Origin: a virus
Length of the DNA stretch: 64,000 nucleotides
Virus record (IMG/VR): IMGVR_UViG_3300029324_000094
Span: 1 to 64,000 of that record
Strand: one strand, 5' to 3'
The notes under the pieces were generated by a model. The model made no database searches. It was not told the origin of the DNA and saw nothing but the letters and a program-made list of their open reading frames with translations. Of this stretch, positions 1,190 through 45,466 are shown one piece after another. Both the position numbers and the translations under genes were made by a program. The first letter of the stretch is position 1; the number at the start of each line of letters is the position of its first letter.

Positions 1190-2218
1190 TTATTTCACCC
1201 TGAGTTTCTGACCGGCATAAATTTTATTCGGATTTTTGATGCCGTTCAACGCTGCAATCTTCTGATAGGTTGTGCCGTATTTTGCTGCAATCTTTGACAG
1301 GGTATCACCGGATTTTACCGTATAGCATACAGCAGATGTTCCTGATCCACTTCCGTTGATTACTTTCTGCACTTCTGCATACCGTTTTCCGAGTACCGTC
1401 TTACGGGTATCACCATTGCCATATTTTCCCGCCTTTGTCTCTGCAGCAAGCGTGGAGACTGATGCGGATGCGATATGATTGATAAATGTCTGCACCTCGG
1501 AGTAACGACTGCCAAGCTTTGCCTTGCGTGTATCGCCATTACCATACTTGCCTGACAGCGTATCTACCACAAGCTGCAATGTTGTTCCAATCGGCACGAC
1601 TGCACTGGGACTGGATGCAGGCTGTGACGGCTTGCTGATCCCTGTGATTTCTGCCGGAAAATCACGATAGCAATAATTAACATCTACCCGTCCACTAATG
1701 CCCGGAACACTTCCATCGGAGCTGTACTGCCACATATCGGCTTTCATCCCAAGTGTACTATTATAGCGTGCGATCCACAGTGGATATCTTGTCCCCAGCG
1801 AACTCAAGTAATTATCCCACCATGATTTATTACAATACACTCCGCACTTATATCCTGCTGCTTCGATCAGTGCAGCGAATTTCTTCATACGGTCAACCGC
1901 ACCGTTCTGCGTTCCCGATTCTTCCAGATCATAAAATACCGGATATGAAAGTTTATATCCTTTCACCAGTCTCAGTACATGTCTTGCCTCTGACTCTGCC
2001 TGTGCAGTTGTCTTTGCATACGAATAAATATAAACACCAAACGGAATCCCCAGCTTGGTACATTCATTTGCATTTCTCTTCCACTGTGTATCATCCTGAG
2101 AGGTCAGATCATCCCCGTAGCCACACCGGATGATTACATGATATCCGGCTGCCTTAACTTTCTCCCAGTTAATAGTTCCCTGATGATACGATACGTCTAC
2201 TACATTAATCGTTGCCAT
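1190..2218 (-). CDS. Phage endolysin: GH25 muramidase, two CW_7 repeats and a C-terminal LysM
   Basis: N-terminal GH25-like region ([21 protein letters not shown]). Two repeats [18 protein letters not shown] match the CW_7 motif. C-terminal LysM ([29 protein letters not shown]). Confidence 0.85.
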
Positions 2219-2220
2219 GA

Positions 2221-2643
2221 TTATTCTTCCTCCTTATCTGAATCTCTCAACTGTAAAAGTACATCTTTCAGCCGTTCCGGGATCGGAACAAATACCGCTG
2301 CATTTTCCAACAGGCTCAACGCTTCGTTGCAAATGTAAAATGTGATTACCACTTCCCGGAGTGGAATCGTGCCACCGATCAGCATCTGAATCAGGTAAGC
2401 CACAGCGATCACAATAAACATCACGATCTTTTTCAGCAATCCACGAAATCCCGTTTCGGACGAAAGCTGCTTCAAATAGATCCCTTTTAGCACTCCCGTA
2501 ACATAATCCAGCACTGCAAGACACACGATCGTCTTAAGCAGTACATCCCATCCTCCTAAAAAGTACGCAAGGACTCCACCCAGGAATCCAAACACAATGC
2601 TGATTTCATTAAATAACTTGTCCATCTTTTTCATATTCCTCAC
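2221..2643 (-). CDS. Phage holin (phage_holin_4_1-like)
   Basis: 140 aa with two or three TM segments and a charged C-terminus; sits immediately upstream of the endolysin gene. Confidence 0.75.
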
Positions 2644-2650
2644 TTTCCTT

Positions 2651-3778
2651 TCATCCTACTGCAAACACCGGGCGAACCCCATAAGTGCTTGTAGCCATAT
2701 CACTGCTAGCATCGCCGTATTGCGATATCAAGGTGTATGTCTGTGATCCTGCTACATTCCGCAACCAATAGTTTACACCAATAGTCTTCAATTCAGGAGC
2801 AAGCCGGAACAGTGCTAACTGTTGTGTATCGGATGTCTGCTTATTACTATTGTCAGTGCAAATATAAGTTCCATGCACCATTACTTCACTCATGAGATCC
2901 ACGGACGCATTTATCCAAGCTCCATCGGAAAACATTCTATGAGTTAGCAATAAACTTTTAAATGTATCCGGCAATGTTTTCGCTATATTATTCAATCGAG
3001 TCGATTTCATTTCCGAATTTCTATAACCACCGTACGTACTGTTGCTTGTATGCATCTGTCCGCTCCCTAACACAGTATCCGGGACTATTAATATATGGGG
3101 TTTTTGTACTTTTTCTGATTCCGGATAACCTACATTTTTCCAGTAATTTACGTCTGCTATCCGATATTTCACTCCATTTATCTCCCAGTAGTCACCAACA
3201 TACAAATCCGCAAAACTTCCATCCCGGATGACTTCCAGCTGCTCCTCCGTGATCGATTCTCCCAGATGTTTACCCCGGAAGATGTTCCGGTGCATTTCCG
3301 GTGACAATGCCGCCTGTATATACACGCTGACTGCCTGCTCCACCATCTCAGGACTGGCGGCAAACCTTCCGGCATCCGCATCATCCCGGACTGACTGGGC
3401 GATCTGCCGTGTCTCGTCCACCTTTTCAAGAATCTGCTGCCATACTGTCGGCTCAGGATTGGATGGAGTACCACCGGAAAGAGTAGCCGGAACCGTAAAG
3501 CTCTTGATATCGGTCGTGATAACCGTCTCGCCTAGCGTCCCGGATACGGATACCCCGACCCGTCCCGGTGCGGTAAGAGCCTCTGCCGGAACAGTGCAGG
3601 TATCATCTTCCAGAAGTTTCGGATGATTTTCCCCGTCTGCTCCCCGGAAGAAAGCCGTCTTCGTCATTCCATCCCATTCCTCTGAGAAGCTGAACTCTGC
3701 TTTCAGATACTCCCTTGTTCCCTCTGCTGTCTCAGGTGGCTCAAGATAGAGCCGCTGATTTACTACTTTGATTTTCAT
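2651..3778 (-). CDS. Putative tail fibre / receptor-binding protein with C-terminal YWLR...GVRP domain
   Basis: 375 aa between the tail genes and the lysis cassette. The C-terminal YWLRNVAGS...YGVRPVFAV motif recurs in ORF 45538..46143. Confidence 0.4.
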   Translation of the reverse strand: MKIKVVNQRLYLEPPETAEGTREYLKAEFSFSEEWDGMTKTAFFRGADGENHPKLLEDDTCTVPAEALTAPGRVGVSVSGTLGETVITTDIKSFTVPATLSGGTPSNPEPTVWQQILEKVDETRQIAQSVRDDADAGRFAASPEMVEQAVSVYIQAALSPEMHRNIFRGKHLGESITEEQLEVIRDGSFADLYVGDYWEINGVKYRIADVNYWKNVGYPESEKVQKPHILIVPDTVLGSGQMHTSNSTYGGYRNSEMKSTRLNNIAKTLPDTFKSLLLTHRMFSDGAWINASVDLMSEVMVHGTYICTDNSNKQTSDTQQLALFRLAPELKTIGVNYWLRNVAGSQTYTLISQYGDASSDMATSTYGVRPVFAVG

Positions 3779-3821
3779 GCTTTTGTATACCCCATTGTCT
3801 TTCTCTCATCTACAAATATTT

Positions 3822-4232
3822 TTAAAATAATTTATATCTTGGCATTTCTTCTCCCCACAGCAGATGTCGAATCCAATCGTCAAGAACAACTGCAATGGCA
3901 GACAAAAGAAACCACAAAATCGAAAACGGAAGACAGATTTGCCCCAGCAGATTGAATGGCATATTGCTGTAATCCCATACATTCCAGCCAAGCAATAGAT
4001 TTACGATGCAACCGCACACAAACTCCAATAATGTAATCACTGCCGACCCTATAACCATCTGTTTCGCAAGTGCCATGCTGCGATATTTTTCATTGATGCA
4101 CCCAATCAAAAAGAACGCTACGCCACCAACAATAAACATTGTCCAGTGGGTTCGTCCTCGTGCAACAACCTCAAGTAGCATATAAATAAGGCCGCCAATC
4201 CCAAATAAAATCAGCGGTCTTATTCTCCTCAT
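3822..4232 (-). CDS. Multi-pass membrane protein (moron; resembles putative ABC-transporter type IV / CmpB-like proteins)
   Basis: 136 aa with four hydrophobic segments. Confidence 0.4.
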   Translation of the reverse strand: MRRIRPLILFGIGGLIYMLLEVVARGRTHWTMFIVGGVAFFLIGCINEKYRSMALAKQMVIGSAVITLLEFVCGCIVNLLLGWNVWDYSNMPFNLLGQICLPFSILWFLLSAIAVVLDDWIRHLLWGEEMPRYKLF

Positions 4233-4939
4233 GATTTTTGAGCCAGCATTGCTTTCAGCGGCTCAGACTGATAATTGACCGGGATATCCATTCCATAGAC
4301 AACTCGTTCAACCTCTTCTTTGTTTTTCAGTGATCGAATATAAATTCTCAGGTCACGAAAATAAGTAACATGCCATGTAACATATCCCATTGCTTTTGAT
4401 GTAATCCTAGCCATGTCCTCATTGCTATAGAACTTGCAATGTTTGTCCTCATCAGACGTGTGCCACGGAATATTTTCTTCTCTTGCCATAACCTGTGCTT
4501 GCAGTCCAACGAGGCTTGTCTGGTCGTGTTCTGTCAACGTAAAATGTTCGGTACTTCCATCGGATAGAACAACATCAATCCCTTGTGCAATTAATGCCTG
4601 CTGCGTATCATTCATTTCAATTACTTTCGATTCTATCACTTCTTCAAGCGTTTCCGGCATAATTGGAACTGGTTCAGGCTCTTCATACACGCTCCCGTCA
4701 TTGGAAAGAATATACCCATCATCAAACACCCGATACAATGTTGTGAAATCTTCGTATTTTCCGTAAACGTTTCCAGCATCATTAAGAAGATAAAAGCCGG
4801 AAAGATTCTGATCGCATCCTGTAATCTGTATCAGATTACTTGCAATCACAGACACGGAGCCATTAACAAGATTCATTTTGTCCAAAAATAAGATATTCAT
4901 ATGTGCCTCCTCGCTACGATTTTGCAATCCATACGCCAT
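4229..4939 (-). CDS. Tail fibre-associated protein (DUF4376-like chaperone?)
   Basis: 236 aa; position within the tail-fibre module only. Confidence 0.3.
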   Translation of the reverse strand: MAYGLQNRSEEAHMNILFLDKMNLVNGSVSVIASNLIQITGCDQNLSGFYLLNDAGNVYGKYEDFTTLYRVFDDGYILSNDGSVYEEPEPVPIMPETLEEVIESKVIEMNDTQQALIAQGIDVVLSDGSTEHFTLTEHDQTSLVGLQAQVMAREENIPWHTSDEDKHCKFYSNEDMARITSKAMGYVTWHVTYFRDLRIYIRSLKNKEEVERVVYGMDIPVNYQSEPLKAMLAQKS

Positions 4940-5552
4940 GGAATTTATAAAAATCCCTTACCGCTGGTGTGGAGAAATAAATAACGCCCGTAGTATCAAC
5001 ATACGACATCACAGCAACTCCGTTTCCCCAACTCTGCGAACATCCTACGCACTGGATGTGCGTTGCTACAGTGGGTCTAAGCTCTGCTGGAATAGCCTCC
5101 GAATTGATGCCATACAAGTTGTTAGCAATTAATGTAGTTCCGCTTTTAGCATTGAGAGATACATTGAAATGTACCTCCCTGCCGATTTTGTAAGCCGAAA
5201 ACGCAGATACGTTATAAAATGGCTGGATATGAAACATTGACTGTGCGTAGCTGACAGGGGTAATCATGTCATACAATTCCTTTACAGCTTTTGCATCAAC
5301 AAAATATCCCTCTTCCGTGACAAGGCTCACTTCACTCAAGGATACAATCTTATTCGCATGGATATCATTCAATGCCTTTCTTTCTTCTATTATCTCTTTT
5401 GCTCCATAGACTGTTCCTTTTTGAGCATACGCAGTCAAATCTTCCAAAGAAATTGTCCCGTCAGTATTGATAGTCTGACGATATTTTCTTTGCGTATTTA
5501 CGCTTGATAATATCTCATCTTTAAAGTCTAAAGATAATGGTGTATATTGCAT
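4914..5552 (-). CDS. Putative tail fibre / baseplate upper protein
   Basis: 212 aa, downstream of Tal. Confidence 0.35.
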   Translation of the reverse strand: MQYTPLSLDFKDEILSSVNTQRKYRQTINTDGTISLEDLTAYAQKGTVYGAKEIIEERKALNDIHANKIVSLSEVSLVTEEGYFVDAKAVKELYDMITPVSYAQSMFHIQPFYNVSAFSAYKIGREVHFNVSLNAKSGTTLIANNLYGINSEAIPAELRPTVATHIQCVGCSQSWGNGVAVMSYVDTTGVIYFSTPAVRDFYKFHGVWIAKS

Positions 5553-21368: not shown

Positions 21369-24080
21369 TTAAATTGGACTTTGTATAATTTGTGCCGCCC
21401 TAACGAAACCAGTTGTAACAAATAATGCAAAACTCGCCAATCCGTCCGGCACATCATCGTGTGGATTCTTCCCACGCACTGAATAACTCAACAGAAATCC
21501 CATCATTCTTCCGTAATCATCTTTCGGTTTATAATGTTCACGATCCCTAAAGAGGACGTGCTTCTTTACCCAATCTGCATTGACAATAATCTTTGTTTCC
21601 TTATTAGATTCCGTGTACTTTGTGGTTATGTTGCAGGCACCGCCTTTTTGCTCAACAAGCTTACTTACTTCAAGTGCTACACGGTCCCCACCATTGTTTG
21701 ACTCGAACTGACACTGTTGCATTTTAGTATTAACTATCAAATCCGATGTCCGCTCATACTGGATTCCGTAATTGGAATTATCATCACAAACACAGTCTGT
21801 AAGATAAAAGTCGTTTCCGTACTGCAACATACAAGGCAAAAACAAATAGTCAGTACCTTTATTTTTCGTATCGCAGATGCCCCATACAGCGTCAGGCTCA
21901 GTAACCGGCAACGTAATGAATCTCCGCAATTCTTCATCTGTATACAGGAGTCCTTCACGTTCGATAGGTTCATTCTTATACAGACACTTGTAGGTGATCT
22001 CATCCATTGTGAGTTCCTGGTCATGGAAAAACTCAACGCTGAAACCATTGTACTTGTAATCGAAATTCGACTCCCCAGTGATAGGGTCTATGTCCGGTAT
22101 GGCAATAAATCTTGCCCTGTCATTTCCATCGTAAATATCAATTAGTCGCCCAATGACATCATGCACGGACCATCTCGTAGCAATATGGATTTCTTTGCAG
22201 CCATCCATTTTTCTCTGTTTGGCGTCAGTACCGTAGATTCTCCAAAGCTTGTCCAGAATATTTTTATTCAATGCTTCTTCGATACCACCAATCAAATCAT
22301 CACAATACAGATATCTATTTGCACGGACTTTACCGGCATTCTTACTTCCAACAGATGTACACTGGATATTTGAGAACGGTTTGTATTTATTGAAATTTAT
22401 GGTTTCTCTCTTGGCATTTGTGCTATGAAATTTCACGTCTGGGAAAATCTCTTGCCAGCAATATTCATCTGAGTTCGTTGTAATATCCATAACCCCGTCA
22501 TAGAACATTCTGGTAATATCTCCACTGTGTGAGAAAAACAAACTGAAATCATCCGGGTGTCTTCCGATTATCCATGAACAGAAAAACTTTTCAAGAGTGG
22601 TGTTATGCGTAATGATATAATCATCTGTAATATATAAATGACTTTCATCATCAATGTAAATGCATTGGCACTCTTCTTCACCGATGTATTCTATCTCTGA
22701 TATGAATCTCTTCATAACTTTTCTTTTTGGAGTATATTTTTCAGCTTTTCTTGTCAGAGAAAATATACTATCCATGCCAGAGGTAAATTGTATGATAATC
22801 TCAAAATAATCATTGCATTGTTTATACTTACCATTTTTCTTATATCCGGCTTTACGTTTGTTTTTACTTGCATAACCTCCAAGAGAATGAACAAGTTCGC
22901 ATACATCATTTGCAAGATGTTCTGAAATTGTAGCGTATGTACAATAATATTTTGAAGCAGATCCGTCTGTATCCATAAGACCTCTCAAAAGCCACAATCT
23001 CTGCTCATAACTTCCATATAGATAATCTTTCGGTATGAATTTATCTATACTCTTCTTTCCGAATAATCCGAGCCTATCAAGTTCTTTTCTGACTAAGCTT
23101 CCAACTTTTGCATTATCGCCTTCATGTCCACTAACAAAATATGTACATCTCTCTTTATATTTCAAGCTATATCCATCAGGTAAAAAACTGTCAAATCTAT
23201 CCAACAATTCTTTGTCTACAGAGCTTAGCAAAACACTACCACCAGTTAATCCGCCATCTCCGATAAGTGCACCGACAACATACGGGTGCAGGGAAAATTC
23301 TTTTTTCTCAAAACAATCGATCTTAGGAACATAATCTATTGAATAATTTTTTCTCTTTCCATTCTCCAACTTGTAATTTTTAAGCATTTCAGACAGCTCT
23401 ACTGTCCTGTATTTTTCGCTACCATCTTTATTCTTTCGTCTGCGATCATCTCTTGTTTGTACCGTCCATAAGTGATTATCCGAACATCTCGTCTTGGAAC
23501 CATCATCGAAGGTCACCTCATACATCTTTCGCTTCTTTCTTGGTGAGATACTAAGCACGGTTGCTACTTTTCCTGTTCCAGAAATTACCTTTGTACCTAC
23601 TTTGACGTCCCCCATTTGTATAAATCCATTTGGCGTCAATATCTTTGAATATAAAGGTTGACACTTCTGCGTTCCCGGTGGCATGGAAATTGAAAGGATG
23701 TCAAGTTTGTCATCCTCAAGATCCTGCATTGCCTGAATCAATCCATGCTTATTCAGTTGTTTCCTTTTCGGGGAGTAGAAGCGATCCTGTTCTAATCGTT
23801 TTCGCTCAAGATAAAGTAGATAGCTGTCAAACAAATGAGGTGCCTCAAACTTTAAAGCTTGCCAGTACAAGGTTTCAAACCGCACATCCTGATTCTTTAT
23901 CAGTAATCTCTGAGCCGATAACTTAACCGCCTTTGAGAGTTTCAGGCAGTATTGCAGATAGTCATGATTATCCTCATACATATTCAGGCACAACTGCATA
24001 ATATTATCCCATGTACTATATTTATTTGTATCCTGCATTTTCAATGCGTTTGCTAATCTCTTATACTCTCTAAACTCCAT
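21369..24080 (-). CDS. terL: Terminase large subunit interrupted by an intein
   Basis: Likely start MEFREYKRL behind a GGGAGA RBS; the ORF-table start at 24125 has no good RBS. ATPase P-loop PPGTQK|..|TTLEKFF is split by a 354-aa Cys1...HN/T intein. C-terminal nuclease domain contains HDDVPD. Confidence 0.85.
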   Translation of the reverse strand: MEFREYKRLANALKMQDTNKYSTWDNIMQLCLNMYEDNHDYLQYCLKLSKAVKLSAQRLLIKNQDVRFETLYWQALKFEAPHLFDSYLLYLERKRLEQDRFYSPKRKQLNKHGLIQAMQDLEDDKLDILSISMPPGTQKCQPLYSKILTPNGFIQMGDVKVGTKVISGTGKVATVLSISPRKKRKMYEVTFDDGSKTRCSDNHLWTVQTRDDRRRKNKDGSEKYRTVELSEMLKNYKLENGKRKNYSIDYVPKIDCFEKKEFSLHPYVVGALIGDGGLTGGSVLLSSVDKELLDRFDSFLPDGYSLKYKERCTYFVSGHEGDNAKVGSLVRKELDRLGLFGKKSIDKFIPKDYLYGSYEQRLWLLRGLMDTDGSASKYYCTYATISEHLANDVCELVHSLGGYASKNKRKAGYKKNGKYKQCNDYFEIIIQFTSGMDSIFSLTRKAEKYTPKRKVMKRFISEIEYIGEEECQCIYIDDESHLYITDDYIITHNTTLEKFFCSWIIGRHPDDFSLFFSHSGDITRMFYDGVMDITTNSDEYCWQEIFPDVKFHSTNAKRETINFNKYKPFSNIQCTSVGSKNAGKVRANRYLYCDDLIGGIEEALNKNILDKLWRIYGTDAKQRKMDGCKEIHIATRWSVHDVIGRLIDIYDGNDRARFIAIPDIDPITGESNFDYKYNGFSVEFFHDQELTMDEITYKCLYKNEPIEREGLLYTDEELRRFITLPVTEPDAVWGICDTKNKGTDYLFLPCMLQYGNDFYLTDCVCDDNSNYGIQYERTSDLIVNTKMQQCQFESNNGGDRVALEVSKLVEQKGGACNITTKYTESNKETKIIVNADWVKKHVLFRDREHYKPKDDYGRMMGFLLSYSVRGKNPHDDVPDGLASFALFVTTGFVRAAQIIQSPI
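22602..23663 (-). other. Intein with LAGLIDADG homing-endonuclease domain inside terL
   Basis: Starts CQPLYSKILTPNG (block A) and ends YIITHN followed by +1 Thr. Carries LAGLIDADG-like motifs ALIGDGGL and LLRGLMDTDGS. Confidence 0.8.
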
Positions 24081-24143
24081 GTTTCTCCCTAAATCAAAAA
24101 AGAGCCAATATCTGCAATTTCTCACAAATATCAGCTCTGGCTC

Positions 24144-41168: not shown

Positions 41169-41564
41169 TTATTCTTTGTACTTCTGCAAAATCTCTGTAA
41201 TTGCTTTCATGTGATCTGCTGCTTCCATCAAATCTTCATCACCAATCGAATCAAGACCGTATTTCCTATTAAAATCCTCAAACGCATATCTTCCATCTCT
41301 AAATTGTTCAAACATGATAGCTAATTCATTTTCTTTTTCCGAATTTTCATCACACTCATAAAAAATTTCATTTTTGTCATGTTCTCCAAACTTATCAGTA
41401 AAGAATTTTGTCCGCTTTGGAGTGATTCTTGTGATTTTTGCCGGAGTAATTAACTGATGCCGGAATGATGAACGCCATCCACAACTCACGTCTCTCGCAA
41501 CACCAACAATATCCCCGACTTTCAATGTGTCTTTGTCTATCTCTTTTAATTTAATGTTCATCAA
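41169..41564 (-). CDS. Hypothetical protein
   Basis: ORF only. Confidence 0.35.
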   Translation of the reverse strand: MMNIKLKEIDKDTLKVGDIVGVARDVSCGWRSSFRHQLITPAKITRITPKRTKFFTDKFGEHDKNEIFYECDENSEKENELAIMFEQFRDGRYAFEDFNRKYGLDSIGDEDLMEAADHMKAITEILQKYKE

Positions 41565-44061
41565 TTCTCATCCTTTCCGCAATCGCTTCGATCACATTTA
41601 CAGTAACTCCATTTCCGGCTTGCTTGTACAACTGACTGTCAGAATTTACAAACGCAGCTTTTTCAAAATAATCATCCGTCCACCCTTGCAGTCTGAAACA
41701 TTCTTTCGGAGTCAATCGCCGGATTGCTATGTAGCATTGATATTTTTCATACCAGACAGCATATACGGTCAGTTCTTCCGACACTTGTACGAAAATCCCT
41801 TGATTGCAACTGGTATCAAGCGTATTTGCTATGTCATGCCCTACTCTACCTCTTCTCGTTTTACTTCCTGGTACAGCCAAATTTACGCTATCAACACCAA
41901 CTCTGCATTCCGAATATCCTTGTTTTGTCGCTTCTGTTACTTTTACTGCAAGCTGATTATCTTTATTGACGGTGGACAATGTATTCACTACTCCATCATC
42001 TCTGACTTCGCTTTCGAGGAATTCATGTCTGGAGATTTTGATGTTTCCAGCTTCATAATCTTTGCGGATTTCTTTTCCGTAATCACTACGAACATTCCGT
42101 AGTACTCCGATCGGCTCTATTCCTACTCCATGTCTATCCTGTCCCGTAAGCGTAAACATTGGTTCTCCGTCTTCCTTGAATCTCCGTCCGTTCTGACGTT
42201 TTTCTGCCCTATCTGGTGTTAATACCGGAATAGCAATTCCGCTATCTTGCCCTGCGTGGTTCGATGCTCCTTTGTGATATCTTGCCTTCAGGCATCGTGC
42301 CTGCTCCGTCATCTTCGAGCCTTCATGACACAAGTCAATGAAGCATGGCAAGGCACCATGTTGCCTTCCGCCGCCTTGACAAGTGCTTAATGCTTCTGTG
42401 ATTCCATCTTGTGCAAATACCTGCGTATTTCTTCTGTAACCGTCCCTGTGACCTATTATTTGAATACTATTTTCTCCGTCTGCTCTTTCGACAGGAAATA
42501 CTTTTGCGGTACTTCTCCCTCTAAGATGTCCGATAATGAAACACCTTTCTCTGTTTTGTGGGACTCCGAAATCTTTGGAGTTGAGTACTTGCCATTCTGC
42601 ATCATACCCTGCTTGTTCCATTTCAATGAGCAGTCTGGCGAAATCCCATCCTCCATTAACACTAAGCAGATTCTTAACGTTCTCAATGAAAAGGTAAGTG
42701 GGTTTATCTTCTTCTTTGAGCTGTCCGATAAGGTACATAACTCTGAAAAACAAGCTTGAACGGTTTCCTTGAAATCCAAGTTGCTTTCCGGCAACTGAGA
42801 TATCTTGGCAATTGTGGACAATTGCTCCGTTTGCAACATATGAGTTGTCTTCTTCAACACTGATGTTATACACTGTTCCAAAATCATCAGATTCTGTTGG
42901 CTGATACAATTCTCTGCAAACATATCTTGCACGATAATGTCCTTTAACTGATTTACTAGAGATTCGGAATGTATATGTATCTCTTTGTCGGCATTCCCTT
43001 CCTTGGATAACACATTTTTCATCTCTTCTAGTGTAGTAAACAGCTGGAACAGATTTTCCAAGTCGCTGTGCAATGATGCACATGCCAAGAACGAGTGCTG
43101 CGCTGGTTGATGTTGCTTCTTCTCGATCACTTCTTCCATCACCGGACATATATCCATCGAAGAAGTATTTTGCTTTCTCTCGTGGCAAACACAATGCTTC
43201 TCTTGGAACTCGTTTTCCATGTGCGTATTTTCCGAACTTTTCAAGGTATTCGTATAATTGGTTATTGCACACATGATACTTTCCACAAGTTCGTTCTTTT
43301 GTGTAAGTTCCATGTAGTTTCGCTTCTCGCAATCGCTGTTCGAATTCTGCCCTCTTATCATCGCTGATTGCGAACACGATTCTTCCTCCACTTGGTCTGT
43401 CTTTTCTTTCAACTCTCCACCCATCAGCAAGATAACGTCCGATAATCCACCACATTTCCTTGCTGTATCCATCGGATTCTGCATCAGGCAAAACCATTGT
43501 GGAATACCAACTGTCATCAAGTTGTTCCACTTTTTTGAATTCCATTGGCTGATCTGGTTTAGTGACATAATACGGATGCTCTGCCGTGGTTCTTGTTGGC
43601 AATATTCCGAATCCATTGACATCCCAGAGTCTTGCTCCGTCCCTGTGCATTGTTGCTGTGACTTTTCTCCATCTTCCTTTGTGCGTAAGGACTTTATCTC
43701 CGACAGATACATCTTCAATTGGGATATATCCTTTTTCTGTAAGAATATAAGTTCCTTTGGCAAAACATGGGAATCCGAAACACCAACAGTCTGCTTTCGG
43801 AATGTCTCCGGTATACACTCGTCTAATGTCATTTGCGTACCATTCTCCGTTTCTGTATTCATCTTTTAAAATCTCCTTTTGTCGCTTTTTCAGTGGTAAT
43901 TCTTCCAGTACTTTTCTCTGCTCATCTGTCAGAAGATGCATGGATATGTAGCTTGCAGTCGCAAATTTATCAAATTCACAAAAACCAACACACTCATGTC
44001 CAGCAAGTTCCATTCCCTTTCGGAAACCACCTATTCCGGCGAAAAAATCTATAAATTTCAC
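41551..44061 (-). CDS. dcm: DNA cytosine-5 methyltransferase (Dcm) interrupted by an intein
   Basis: Motif I FAGIGGF. Motif IV GFPC|Q is split by a 319-aa intein. Also ENV, QNRER, and motifs IX/X (QAGNGVTVNV). Confidence 0.85.
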   Translation of the reverse strand: MKFIDFFAGIGGFRKGMELAGHECVGFCEFDKFATASYISMHLLTDEQRKVLEELPLKKRQKEILKDEYRNGEWYANDIRRVYTGDIPKADCWCFGFPCFAKGTYILTEKGYIPIEDVSVGDKVLTHKGRWRKVTATMHRDGARLWDVNGFGILPTRTTAEHPYYVTKPDQPMEFKKVEQLDDSWYSTMVLPDAESDGYSKEMWWIIGRYLADGWRVERKDRPSGGRIVFAISDDKRAEFEQRLREAKLHGTYTKERTCGKYHVCNNQLYEYLEKFGKYAHGKRVPREALCLPREKAKYFFDGYMSGDGRSDREEATSTSAALVLGMCIIAQRLGKSVPAVYYTRRDEKCVIQGRECRQRDTYTFRISSKSVKGHYRARYVCRELYQPTESDDFGTVYNISVEEDNSYVANGAIVHNCQDISVAGKQLGFQGNRSSLFFRVMYLIGQLKEEDKPTYLFIENVKNLLSVNGGWDFARLLIEMEQAGYDAEWQVLNSKDFGVPQNRERCFIIGHLRGRSTAKVFPVERADGENSIQIIGHRDGYRRNTQVFAQDGITEALSTCQGGGRQHGALPCFIDLCHEGSKMTEQARCLKARYHKGASNHAGQDSGIAIPVLTPDRAEKRQNGRRFKEDGEPMFTLTGQDRHGVGIEPIGVLRNVRSDYGKEIRKDYEAGNIKISRHEFLESEVRDDGVVNTLSTVNKDNQLAVKVTEATKQGYSECRVGVDSVNLAVPGSKTRRGRVGHDIANTLDTSCNQGIFVQVSEELTVYAVWYEKYQCYIAIRRLTPKECFRLQGWTDDYFEKAAFVNSDSQLYKQAGNGVTVNVIEAIAERMRIDEH
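42811..43767 (-). other. Intein with LAGLIDADG homing endonuclease inside dcm
   Basis: Starts CFAKGTYILTEKG and ends NGAIVHN followed by +1 Cys. Carries IIGRYLADGW and FFDGYMSGDG. Confidence 0.8.
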
Positions 44062-44909
44062 TGTGTACCTCCGATAAAATCAGTAATGCTCATCTGCGGA
44101 TCTACTTCAACATTCAACATCTCATTTTTCGCTTTACTGTAAAAATTTCGATCAATTTCAAATCCGTAAGCACTTCTACCTAAATTCCTTGCAGCTCGCA
44201 ATGTGCTACCGGAACCGCAGCAAGGATCAATAACCACATCCCCCGGATCCGTAAATATCTGGATCAGTTGCTCCAACACCTTAACCGGCTTCTGTGCTGG
44301 ATGGATTTTAGGTATCTCTTTCCCGTCCTTTTCCCACTTAAACCAGTTAAACACCATATGTCCGGTACCTCGAATCGTCTTACCGTTTTCGTCAAATTTT
44401 GCACCGTTTCTAAATTTCGGCAACTTATCCCGGTATAATACCAGTGCATATTCCGTAGCACCCACAACACGCATGTTTGCTTTCAATACCTGTGGGCTAT
44501 AATTTTTCACGAATACAAGCGGTATGTAATTATTAAAACCATGTTTCTTAGCTGCATTGATCAATGTACTCATCTGCTCAAAACTGCAAAATACAATCAT
44601 GCACGGTGCATCAGAACTTCTTCCACGTCTACCGGCTTTCTTTGGCTCTTTCTTCAACATCTTCGAGCAGAAGTGGAAGTATTCATATAAATTGAAATTA
44701 AAGTCAGAATTGAATGCTGCTTTCTTTGCAAGTTTGCTTTCACCGTTTTTGTTATCCCCACCTACATACCACATTGGATTGCTTCCATAGAAGTTGCTTC
44801 CAACATTGTATGGCACATCTGCTATAATCAGTTGCGCTTTCGGTATTCCATAACGGCGAAAATTTTGCATCGAGTCTCTATAGATTTCACATTTCATACT
44901 CTTTCCCAT
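44058..44909 (-). CDS. N6-adenine or N4-cytosine DNA methyltransferase (beta class)
   Basis: Motif IV DVPY (IIADVPYN) precedes motif I (DPCCGSGST). Confidence 0.7.
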   Translation of the reverse strand: MGKSMKCEIYRDSMQNFRRYGIPKAQLIIADVPYNVGSNFYGSNPMWYVGGDNKNGESKLAKKAAFNSDFNFNLYEYFHFCSKMLKKEPKKAGRRGRSSDAPCMIVFCSFEQMSTLINAAKKHGFNNYIPLVFVKNYSPQVLKANMRVVGATEYALVLYRDKLPKFRNGAKFDENGKTIRGTGHMVFNWFKWEKDGKEIPKIHPAQKPVKVLEQLIQIFTDPGDVVIDPCCGSGSTLRAARNLGRSAYGFEIDRNFYSKAKNEMLNVEVDPQMSITDFIGGTQ

Positions 44910-45466
44910 CTCATGCCTCCTGCCGTTTTCGCAATCCCAGTAATTACATGGTTAATACTACCAACGTTAATTCCGGTTAAATCACTTGCTTCTTTGCATG
45001 AACTATAAACAACTCCGGTATCGACGCATTTTATTGGCTTGCAATTCCGTGCCTGCTTAAGAACGTTGTAGGAATGCTTTATATTTTCCCCATGCGAAGT
45101 CCATTCCAAATTTTCTACATAATTATTTCTTTTATTTCCATCCTTATGATTTACGTCCCTAAACTTTTCAGGATTGTCTAAAAACGCTGATGCAACCAAT
45201 CTGTGAACTGTACATATCTTTCTTTTTGCGTTTACGCTTATACTAACAATTGGATAGCCTCCGTTTTGTATTCTTTGTGCAAGCACACGTCCTTTCATAA
45301 AACTGGTTACGTTTACACCTCCATTCCCAATCTTTGATATCTTTCTGTCCAAAGACCGGATATTTCCAAGATTCGATGCCTGATAAAATCCTTTGTACTC
45401 AGGTATATCTTTCCATATTTCACACTTTATCTTCTTCCTTCTCTGTTCCATATTTACTCGGAGCAA
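44894..45466 (-). CDS. HNH homing endonuclease with NUMOD4 motif
   Basis: WKDIPEYKGFYQASNLGNIRS (NUMOD4) and an HNH_3 core (NHKDGNKRNNYVENLEW). Confidence 0.65.
   Translation of the reverse strand: MLRVNMEQRRKKIKCEIWKDIPEYKGFYQASNLGNIRSLDRKISKIGNGGVNVTSFMKGRVLAQRIQNGGYPIVSISVNAKRKICTVHRLVASAFLDNPEKFRDVNHKDGNKRNNYVENLEWTSHGENIKHSYNVLKQARNCKPIKCVDTGVVYSSCKEASDLTGINVGSINHVITGIAKTAGGMRWERV

What the first reader, a model, noticed from the sequence alone, without database searches (positions are those of the whole stretch)
41551..44061. Cytosine-5 DNA methyltransferase split by a LAGLIDADG intein exactly within the catalytic PCQ motif
Motif IV reads GFP-[C...319 aa...HN]-CQ, so precise excision of 42811..43767 restores GFPCQ. 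The intein has block A and block G features and two LAGLIDADG motifs. The MTase cannot be active unless the intein splices. Intein-containing Dcm genes in prophages are rarely annotated.
Basis: seen in the sequence. Interest (0 to 1): 0.65.

Follow-up and report, generated by a model that had tools for sequence, protein, structure and literature searches.

The report
Mobile intein splitting phage cytosine methyltransferase
A gut-phage DNA cytosine methyltransferase gene is interrupted, exactly at its catalytic cysteine, by a self-splicing and apparently still mobile protein intron (intein); it is a real and tidy example, but of a kind already known and common in public sequence data.

Summary
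ORF 41551..44061 (minus strand, 836 aa) is a C5 DNA methyltransferase whose motif IV reads GFP|C...319 aa...HN|CQ. Removing 42811..43767 restores GFPCQDIS and a single contiguous match to the C5-MTase profiles.

The insert is a class 1 intein. It has Cys1, TxxH, a terminal His-Asn and a +1 Cys, and it carries a two-motif LAGLIDADG homing endonuclease. An AlphaFold model (pLDDT 97) matches the TliVMA, PhoVMA, PI-SceI and I-DmoI structures.

Intein-free alleles (up to about 97% nt identity in the C-extein) differ by a clean 957-nt gap. Nearly identical inteins sit in divergent exteins, and the reverse also occurs. Identity falls from about 99% to about 86% exactly at both intein borders. The endonuclease domain is under purifying selection (dN/dS 0.11). 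Together these indicate ongoing homing.

It is not rare. About 120 of the 126 best full-length 50%-identity cluster representatives carry an intein at the same P|CQ site. These include cultured phages (Lactobacillus Nyseid, Propionibacterium B22, P1-like dmt alleles). B22 gp50 is already catalogued as a C-5 methylase intein.

Verdict: a new member of a known kind, of modest interest. Splicing, cleavage and methylation specificity are all untested.

The parts
41551..44061 (-). Whole precursor ORF (836 aa): C5 DNA methyltransferase interrupted by an intein
43768..44061 (-). N-extein (aa 1-98). Contains motif I FFAGIGG and ends with ...CWCFGFP, the first half of motif IV.
42811..43767 (-). Intein, 319 aa, class 1 (Cys1 ... 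His318-Asn319)
43483..43767 (-). N-terminal Hint (splicing) subdomain, intein aa 1-95 (approximate border). Block A CFAKGT is at 43750..43767; block B TTAEHP (Thr61, His64) is at 43573..43590.
42913..43482 (-). LAGLIDADG homing-endonuclease domain, intein aa 96-285 (approximate borders). Motif 1 is at 43417..43452 (Asp115), motif 2 at 43135..43170 (Asp210), and the conserved Lys185 lies in 43204..43224.
42811..42912 (-). C-terminal Hint subdomain, intein aa 286-319. Block F TVYNISVEEDNSYVANG and block G AIVHN.
42808..42810 (-). +1 Cys codon (aa 418). It is the splicing nucleophile and, after splicing, the catalytic Cys of PCQ.
41551..42810 (-). C-extein (aa 418-836 plus stop). Contains CQDIS, ENV (motif VI), QNRER (motif VIII), a variable region of about 260 aa, RRLTPKECFRLQGW (motif IX) and GNGV (motif X).

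Best explanation
This is a phage C5 DNA methyltransferase gene invaded by a mobile class 1 intein that carries a LAGLIDADG homing endonuclease. The intein lies between Pro98 and the catalytic Cys of motif IV (PCQ). Inferred mechanism, from established intein chemistry: the 836-aa precursor is made first. Cys99 (intein residue 1) undergoes an N-S acyl shift. Cys418 (+1) attacks that thioester. Asn417 cyclises and releases the 319-aa intein. An S-N shift then leaves a normal Pro-Cys peptide bond, giving a 517-aa MTase with an intact GFPCQ loop. The same Cys therefore serves once as splicing nucleophile and afterwards as the nucleophile that attacks cytosine C6, so the precursor should be inactive. 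The released intein (or the precursor) acts as a site-specific endonuclease on intein-free alleles, at the DNA that encodes ...CWCFGFP|CQDISVAGK. Recombinational repair from an intein-bearing phage or prophage copies the intein in (homing). What is shown here: the anatomy, the fold, conservation of catalytic residues, presence/absence polymorphism, and population-genetic signs of horizontal movement. What is inferred: splicing, cleavage and methylation.
For: Anatomy and reconstitution. The spliced motif IV aligns without a gap to M.HhaI cfGFPCQ..S..GK. Splicing residues: in 82 diverse relatives (35-78% identity), C1, T61, H64 and N319 are invariant, and H318 and the +1 Cys are at least 90% conserved. 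Endonuclease: G110, G116, K185, G205, D210 and G211 are invariant and D115 is at least 90% conserved. The AF2 model has pLDDT 97.2 and pTM 0.93. The best PDB matches are endonuclease-bearing inteins TliVMA (E 1e-16), PhoVMA, PI-SceI, PI-PkoII and PI-PfuI, and the two-motif LAGLIDADG enzyme I-DmoI. Polymorphism: 112 of 233 close homologues have an uninterrupted FGFPCQDIS, and all 120 intein-bearing ones have an intein of exactly 319 aa. L069 and L073 differ from the window by a clean 957-nt gap. Empty and reconstituted sites are the same sequence apart from wobble positions; non-wobble conservation is 0.99-1.00. Mobility: L027 has a 100% identical N-extein but an 86% identical intein, while L034, L036 and L037 have 98-99% identical inteins in 81-83% identical N-exteins. 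Identity falls from 0.99-1.00 to 0.85-0.88 exactly at both borders in 16 loci. Within one intein type, dS is 0.07 for the intein, against 0.44 for the N-extein and 0.17 for the C-extein. Selection: dN/dS is 0.14 for the intein and 0.11 for the endonuclease domain.
Against: No experiment supports splicing, cleavage or methylation. The query's own LAGLIDADG_3 Pfam score is below threshold (14 bits, E 0.061), so the endonuclease assignment rests on the model, the fold search and relatives. Block F is non-canonical: Asn301 replaces the usual Asp, and no His sits at the usual F-block position (the comparison with canonical inteins is from my own knowledge). This could slow or condition splicing. 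No co-conversion tract is visible next to the intein, which is unusual for homing. The exteins are themselves mosaic, so part of the discordance could come from ordinary recombination. The homologue sets were picked by similarity to the query, which inflates apparent intein conservation at the protein level.
Confidence: 0.85

Rival explanations
1. The intein splices, but its endonuclease is no longer active. In this view the intein is inherited vertically and reshuffled only by general homologous recombination between related phages.
For: No co-conversion tracts flank the intein. The exteins are clearly mosaic: N-extein and C-extein identities are uncoupled and the variable region is swapped. 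The query's own LAGLIDADG_3 score is sub-threshold.
Against: The catalytic Asp115, Asp210 and Lys185 are conserved across relatives of 35-78% identity. dN/dS of the endonuclease domain is 0.11. Identity breaks coincide with both intein borders in 16 loci. Intein dS is 6-fold lower than N-extein dS within an intein type. The same site is occupied in very distant MTases from Actinobacteria, Firmicutes and Proteobacteria phages.
Confidence: 0.1
2. The intein is splicing-defective, so the gene is effectively an inactivated methyltransferase kept only as a vehicle for the selfish element.
For: Block F residues are non-canonical. The Mannheimia phage 587AP2 relative is frameshifted just after its intein, which shows that such genes can decay.
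Against: All four splicing nucleophile or assisting positions are intact and conserved. Both exteins are under strong purifying selection in intein-bearing alleles, with dN/dS of 0.04 and 0.12. All MTase motifs are intact. All 120 homologues keep an open 319-aa in-frame intein.
Confidence: 0.04
3. The insert is not an intein but a permanent inserted domain, either a bacterial intein-like (BIL) domain or a nuclease module that makes a fused restriction-modification enzyme.
For: The best PDB sequence hit for the N-terminal 70 aa is a bacterial intein-like domain (2lwy, E 0.0017).
Against: The insert sits inside the catalytic loop, between Pro and Cys. It has the full HN|C junction, and TIGR01443 is above cutoff. 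Whole-length structural matches are to true endonuclease-bearing inteins. Near-identical alleles lack it precisely.
Confidence: 0.01

Closest known systems
Propionibacterium phage B22 gp50 intein. It is listed as 'DNA methylase, C-5 (IPR001525), class 1, LAGLIDADG' in a supplementary table of bioRxiv 10.1101/2025.01.02.630785.
   Same: Same insertion site (CGGSP|CFVAGT...VVHN|CQDLS), same class, same endonuclease type, and a homologous intein (about 30% identity over the full length).
   Different: It is an actinobacteriophage with a very divergent extein, and it has canonical block F (VYDL...DHSF). The preprint does not discuss the insertion site or the wider distribution.
Mycobacteriophage DNA-methylase inteins (DNMT-1/2 in Kelley et al. 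2016, PMC5050341; Gosselin et al. 2023, PMC9957025)
   Same: A homologous LAGLIDADG intein (32% identity over all 319 aa) in an orphan phage DNA methylase. Those papers report the same patchy distribution and intein/extein discordance.
   Different: The host is an N6_N4 (PF01555) methylase fused to a helicase. The site is ...QMHV|C...VKN|CPLQ, not PCQ.
Endonuclease-bearing VMA inteins and PI-SceI / PI-PfuI / PI-PkoII (PDB 7qsu, 7qss, 7qst, 1vde, 1dq3, 2cw7)
   Same: A Hint splicing domain split by a two-motif LAGLIDADG endonuclease. Foldseek E is 1e-16 to 1e-11 and TM (query-normalised) is 0.52-0.71. The N-terminus CFAKGT is identical to PI-SceI.
   Different: Only 10-18% sequence identity, different exteins, and shorter (319 aa against 360-540 aa), so it probably lacks the extra DNA-recognition region of PI-SceI (inference from length only).
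M.HhaI and other type II C5 DNA methyltransferases (PDB 10mh and others)
   Same: The spliced extein has all the conserved motifs. Motif IV GFPCQ aligns to the M.HhaI catalytic loop (E 2.5e-35).
   Different: The variable region between motifs VIII and IX is about 260 aa, much longer than in M.HhaI. Specificity is unknown. It is not an orthologue of E. coli Dcm.
Same-site inteins in cultured phages that are annotated only as methyltransferases: Lactobacillus phage Nyseid and the P1-like dmt of OP279344.1, RCS47 and Ro157c2YLVW
   Same: The junctions are GFP|C...VHN|CQD (Nyseid) and GTP|C...VHN|CQA (P1-like). Canonical P1 (NC_005856) lacks it, so the same presence/absence polymorphism exists there.
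   Different: 29-32% intein identity and different phage families and hosts. I found no paper describing them.

Membership tests
Class 1 intein | Cys or Ser as first residue (block A) | tested here: met
   Cys99 begins CFAKGT. C1 is invariant in 82 relatives.
Class 1 intein | Block B TxxH | tested here: met
   TTAEHP is present. T61 and H64 are invariant.
Class 1 intein | C-terminal His-Asn followed by a Cys/Ser/Thr +1 nucleophile (block G) | tested here: met
   AIVHN|C. TIGR01443 scores 31.6 bits against a cutoff of 15.6. N319 is invariant; H318 and C+1 are at least 90% conserved.
Class 1 intein | Hint fold | tested here: met
   Pfam Hint_2 is above cutoff. The AF2 model has pLDDT 97.2 and whole-length Foldseek matches to solved inteins.
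Class 1 intein | In-frame insertion at a conserved site of a host protein, with intein-free homologues | tested here: met
Class 1 intein | Canonical block F Asp and His | tested here: not met
   The sequence reads VYNISVEEDNSY. Asn301 is invariant in this family. This is an auxiliary feature, not a defining one, in known inteins (own knowledge).
Class 1 intein | Protein splicing demonstrated | not testable with these tools
   Needs expression plus SDS-PAGE and mass spectrometry.
LAGLIDADG homing endonuclease (two-motif, monomeric) | Two LAGLIDADG motifs, each ending in a catalytic acidic residue | tested here: met
   GRYLADG (Asp115) and YMSGDG (Asp210). D210 is invariant and D115 at least 90% conserved.
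LAGLIDADG homing endonuclease (two-motif, monomeric) | Pseudo-dimeric alpha-beta-beta-alpha-beta-beta-alpha fold | tested here: met
   The model's secondary-structure order and Foldseek matches to I-DmoI (E 3.5e-07, target-normalised TM about 0.6) and to intein endonucleases.
LAGLIDADG homing endonuclease (two-motif, monomeric) | Match to Pfam LAGLIDADG profiles above threshold | tested here: inconclusive
   The query scores 14 bits against a cutoff of 22.5. However, 36 of 66 sampled family representatives match LAGLIDADG_3 at E <= 1e-3.
LAGLIDADG homing endonuclease (two-motif, monomeric) | Site-specific cleavage of the empty allele, and homing | not testable with these tools
   Only indirect evidence: intein/extein discordance, sharp identity borders and low intein dS.
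C5 cytosine DNA methyltransferase (PF00145 / TIGR00675) | Profile match above the curated cutoff after excision, contiguous through the junction | tested here: met
   PF00145 scores 211.7 bits (cutoff 22). TIGR00675 scores 225.8 bits (cutoff 100.65) in a single stretch, 3-512 to 1-329.
C5 cytosine DNA methyltransferase (PF00145 / TIGR00675) | Motifs I (FxGxGG), IV (PCQ), VI (ENV), VIII (QxRxR), IX and X (GNxV) | tested here: met
   FFAGIGG, GFP|CQ, ENVKNL, QNRERCF, RRLTPKECFRLQGW and GNGVTV are all present.
C5 cytosine DNA methyltransferase (PF00145 / TIGR00675) | m5C formation and target sequence | not testable with these tools
   Needs methylome sequencing or methylation-sensitive digestion.
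E. coli Dcm subfamily (NF007772) | Score above the subfamily cutoff | tested here: not met
   99.9 bits against a cutoff of 710. 'Dcm' applies only in the loose sense.

The most novel reading that the evidence does not exclude
Splicing may be conditional. The catalytic Cys is locked up as the +1 splicing nucleophile next to Cys1, and the family-wide block F is non-canonical. The intein could therefore act as a post-translational switch, redox-sensitive or DNA-dependent, that delays or gates methyltransferase activity during infection or lysogeny. Separately, the endonuclease targets the most conserved codons of C5 MTases, so it could also cut the MTase genes of competing phages or of the host, acting as an interference weapon.
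Probability: 0.1. Interest if true: 0.7.

Novelty: new member of a known kind. Interest (0 to 1): 0.35.

Why it matters
The case illustrates a known rule in an extreme form. Inteins settle at the most conserved catalytic residues, and here they reuse the enzyme's own nucleophile as the +1 splicing residue.

The by-products are more useful than the single locus:
- The P|CQ site of C5 DNA methyltransferases hosts a large and diverse intein family. In the intein search, 503 cluster representatives scored below 1e-30, and most of the best ones sit at this site.
- The literature I could search barely mentions this family.
- Genome annotation labels these genes only as 'DNA methylase', or splits or mislabels them.
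- The gut-phage population sampled here holds at least three intein alleles together with many empty sites, so it is a natural system for studying ongoing intein homing.

In practice, methylome and restriction-evasion predictions for such phages should treat these genes as intact methyltransferases.

Tried and rejected
- My first regular expression for intein borders anchored on an upstream Cys and gave wrong lengths. It was replaced.
- A local HMM built from the close extein family was too narrow to recognise the divergent exteins of the cluster representatives: 69 of 150 were found split, and many gave no hit. I used Pfam on 66 sampled representatives instead.
- The first dN/dS run included loci whose C-extein was out of register, which gave a spurious C-extein dN of 0.18. 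It was redone on 36 clean loci.
- A PDB sequence search with the intein gave only weak hits (best E 0.0017), so the fold was settled by modelling and Foldseek.
- Several literature searches found only inteins used as purification tags or unrelated inteins. These covered intein with cytosine methyltransferase, C5-methyltransferase, Dmt/P1 and cytosine-5.
- The Gosselin 2023 methylase intein is in the N6_N4 class, not the C5 class.
- I looked for an integrase among the larger ORFs to test the word 'prophage' and saw none in the ORFs scanned. The small ORFs were not scanned exhaustively.
Full report
**1. Observation.**
The minus-strand ORF 41551..44061 encodes 836 aa. Its GTG start is preceded by GGAGG and overlaps the stop of the upstream gene as GTGA. 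GFPC lies at aa 96-99 and VHNCQ at aa 415-419. The insert is therefore aa 99-417: 319 aa, window 42811..43767, starting CFAKGT and ending AIVHN|CQDIS.

The full protein matches PF00145 in three stretches (186 bits). It also matches Hint_2 (37.1 bits, above cutoff) and TIGR01443 intein_Cterm (31.6 bits, cutoff 15.6). After in-silico excision, PF00145 rises to 211.7 bits, with one stretch running through the junction (1-204 to profile 1-176). TIGR00675 then aligns 3-512 to 1-329 in a single stretch. The spliced motif IV aligns without a gap to the catalytic loop of M.HhaI.

**2. What the insert is.**
All class 1 splicing elements are present: Cys1, block B TTAEHP, block F/G ...VANGAIVHN and the +1 Cys.

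I aligned the insert with 81 diverse relatives (35-78% identity) drawn from an exhaustive search of 50%-identity cluster representatives.
- C1, T61, H64 and N319 are invariant.
- H318 and the +1 Cys are at least 90% conserved.
- In the endonuclease, G110, G116, K185, G205, D210 and G211 are invariant and D115 is at least 90% conserved.

These positions include the two LAGLIDADG motifs (GRYLADG and YMSGDG) with their catalytic aspartates.

An AlphaFold2 model built on that alignment is very confident (pLDDT 97.2, pTM 0.93). Its best PDB matches are endonuclease-bearing inteins: TliVMA at E 1e-16, then PhoVMA, PI-SceI, PI-PkoII and PI-PfuI. The two-motif LAGLIDADG enzyme I-DmoI also matches.

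The query's own Pfam LAGLIDADG_3 score is sub-threshold (E 0.061). However, 36 of 66 sampled relatives match that family.

One departure from canonical inteins is the block F sequence VYN...EEDNSY, with Asn301 invariant in the family. The comparison with canonical Asp/His is from my own knowledge.

**3. Presence/absence polymorphism.**
A search with the full protein returned 120 close homologues (78-100% identity). All have an intein of exactly 319 aa. A search with the excised extein added 112 close homologues with an uninterrupted FGFPCQDIS, for example P0121 at 94% and P0122 at 98% identity.

At the DNA level, the viral contigs L069 and L073 align to the window on both sides of a clean 957-nt gap. 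Among viral loci, 48 are occupied and 30 are empty by my motif test. Empty sites and reconstituted occupied sites are the same sequence, AAAGCAGACTGYTGGTGYTTCGGATTCCCN|TGYCAAGACATCTCNGTTGCAGGAAARCAA. Nearly all variation is at wobble positions; non-wobble conservation is 0.99-1.00.

**4. Evidence that the intein moves.**
- Intein and extein relationships disagree. L027 has an N-extein 100% identical in nucleotides to the window but an intein only 86% identical. L034, L036, L037 and others have inteins 98-99% identical in N-exteins 81-83% identical. Three intein types are visible, at about 99%, 85% and 80% identity to the window.
- In 16 loci that carry the window's intein type, nucleotide identity is 0.98-1.00 across the intein. 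It drops to 0.88 and 0.85 in the first 42 nt outside either border.
- Within an intein type, synonymous divergence is 0.07 in the intein, against 0.44 in the N-extein and 0.17 in the C-extein.
- dN/dS is 0.14 for the intein and 0.11 for its endonuclease domain, both within and between types.

Together these results indicate a functional endonuclease and recent horizontal spread into pre-existing, diverged MTase alleles, which is homing.

Two caveats apply. No co-conversion tract is visible. The exteins are themselves mosaic.

**5. How common it is, and what is known.**
The intein-only search found 7,024 cluster representatives at E <= 1e-3 and 503 at E <= 1e-30. Of the 126 among the best 150 that have full-length matches, about 120 show xxP|C...HN|CQx-type junctions. 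Of 66 representatives sampled from the best 150, 61 match PF00145 and 64 match Hint_2.

Same-site inteins occur in cultured phages:
- Lactobacillus phage Nyseid: GFP|C...VHN|CQD.
- Mannheimia phage 587AP2: GTP|C...VHN|CQS, annotated as two genes.
- Propionibacterium phage B22: GSP|C...VHN|CQD.
- The dmt genes of some P1-like phages, while canonical P1 is intein-free.

They also occur in a chromosome contig of Mediterraneibacter hominis NSJ-55.

In the literature, Kelley et al. 2016 and Gosselin et al. 2023 describe LAGLIDADG inteins in N6_N4 methylases of mycobacteriophages. The intein of phage Doug gp68 is 32% identical to ours but sits at a different site in a different MTase class. A 2025 preprint lists C-5 methylase among actinophage intein hosts. 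Its supplementary table has one such entry, B22 gp50, class 1, LAGLIDADG. I found no paper that discusses the PCQ insertion site or its breadth.

The locus is therefore a new member of a known kind.

**6. Context.**
The window is a siphovirus-like phage genome, transcribed almost wholly from the minus strand. Identified genes are:
- endolysin;
- tape measure protein;
- portal;
- terminase large subunit;
- RecT;
- an SbcC-like protein;
- anti-repressor;
- primase/helicase;
- a DnaD-like loader.

Directly upstream of the MTase lie an N6_N4 methylase (44058..44909) and an HNH/NUMOD4 endonuclease (44894..45466). Relatives come from human-gut viromes and from Lachnospiraceae genomes: Mediterraneibacter, Blautia, Roseburia and Coprococcus comes. 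Integration of this particular copy was not shown.

**7. Mechanism and verdict.**
The most likely account (confidence 0.85) is standard class 1 splicing. It restores Pro-Cys in motif IV, with the catalytic Cys doubling as the +1 nucleophile. The LAGLIDADG domain then drives homing into empty PCQ sites.

Splicing, cleavage and methylation are inferred, not shown. The rivals are a dead endonuclease (0.10), a dead intein (0.04) and a non-intein domain (0.01). Each is disfavoured by residue conservation, purifying selection and the precise polymorphism.

The most novel reading that remains open is conditional splicing acting as a switch on MTase activity, or use of the endonuclease against competitors' MTase genes (probability about 0.1).

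Noticed in passing
window 21369..24125 (-); putative intein 22602..23663: The 918-aa terminase large subunit appears to carry a second LAGLIDADG intein at the P-loop (aa 155-508, 354 aa), with junction PPGTQK|CQPLYS...IITHN|TTLEK. Pfam LAGLIDADG_3 (37 bits) and Hom_end are above cutoff, but the Hint matches are weak. Intein-free homologues were not examined.
   Followed up: partly
window 44058..45466 (-): A free-standing HNH/NUMOD4 homing-type endonuclease (44894..45466) overlaps the start of an N6_N4 DNA methylase (44058..44909). That methylase's stop overlaps the GTG start of the C5 MTase (GTGA). HNH endonuclease genes also flank the intein-bearing methylases of Mannheimia phage 587AP2 and mycobacteriophage Doug.
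   Followed up: no
L109 (Escherichia phage P1 isolate OP279344.1, dmt, locus 2270-5311): The dmt genes of some P1-like phages (OP279344.1, RCS47, vB_EcoM-Ro157c2YLVW) carry a same-site intein (GGTP|CFTAGH...VVHN|CQAFS). Canonical P1 (NC_005856/AF234172), P7 and SJ46 lack it. I found no paper mentioning this.
   Followed up: partly
L108 (Mannheimia phage vB_MhS_587AP2, locus 1264-3100): The intein-bearing C5 MTase is annotated as two genes ('hypothetical protein' plus 'cytosine-specific DNA methyltransferase'). The reading frame changes just after the intein, which points to either a decayed gene or a sequencing frameshift.
   Followed up: no
phage records (e.g. NC_031262.1, NC_026588.1, NC_051685.1): The RefSeq copies of several mycobacteriophage genomes name the intein-bearing DNA methylase 'anaerobic ribonucleoside reductase large subunit' or 'DNA helicase', while the GenBank originals say 'DNA methylase'. 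This is probably misannotation driven by intein homology.
   Followed up: no
window 41700..42230 (-), extein aa about 196-460: The variable (target-recognition) region is about 260 aa and differs in length and sequence among close homologues (total lengths 763-882 aa; region identity down to 62%). It has relatives in C5 MTases of many Firmicutes phages, including 21 Bacillus and 106 Streptococcus records. It may be a modular or multispecific recognition region. Specificity is unknown.
   Followed up: no
window 42769..42810 and 43768..43809 (extein DNA next to the intein): No co-conversion tract is visible. In loci with a 98-100% identical intein, the first 42 nt of extein on either side are only 85-88% identical. 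This is unexpected for double-strand-break-repair homing and remains unexplained.
   Followed up: partly
window 42826..42876 (-), intein block F: In this family the canonical block F Asp is replaced by an invariant Asn (VYN), and there is no His at the usual F-block position. B22 keeps the canonical VYD...DHSF. This may bear on splicing rate or regulation.
   Followed up: no
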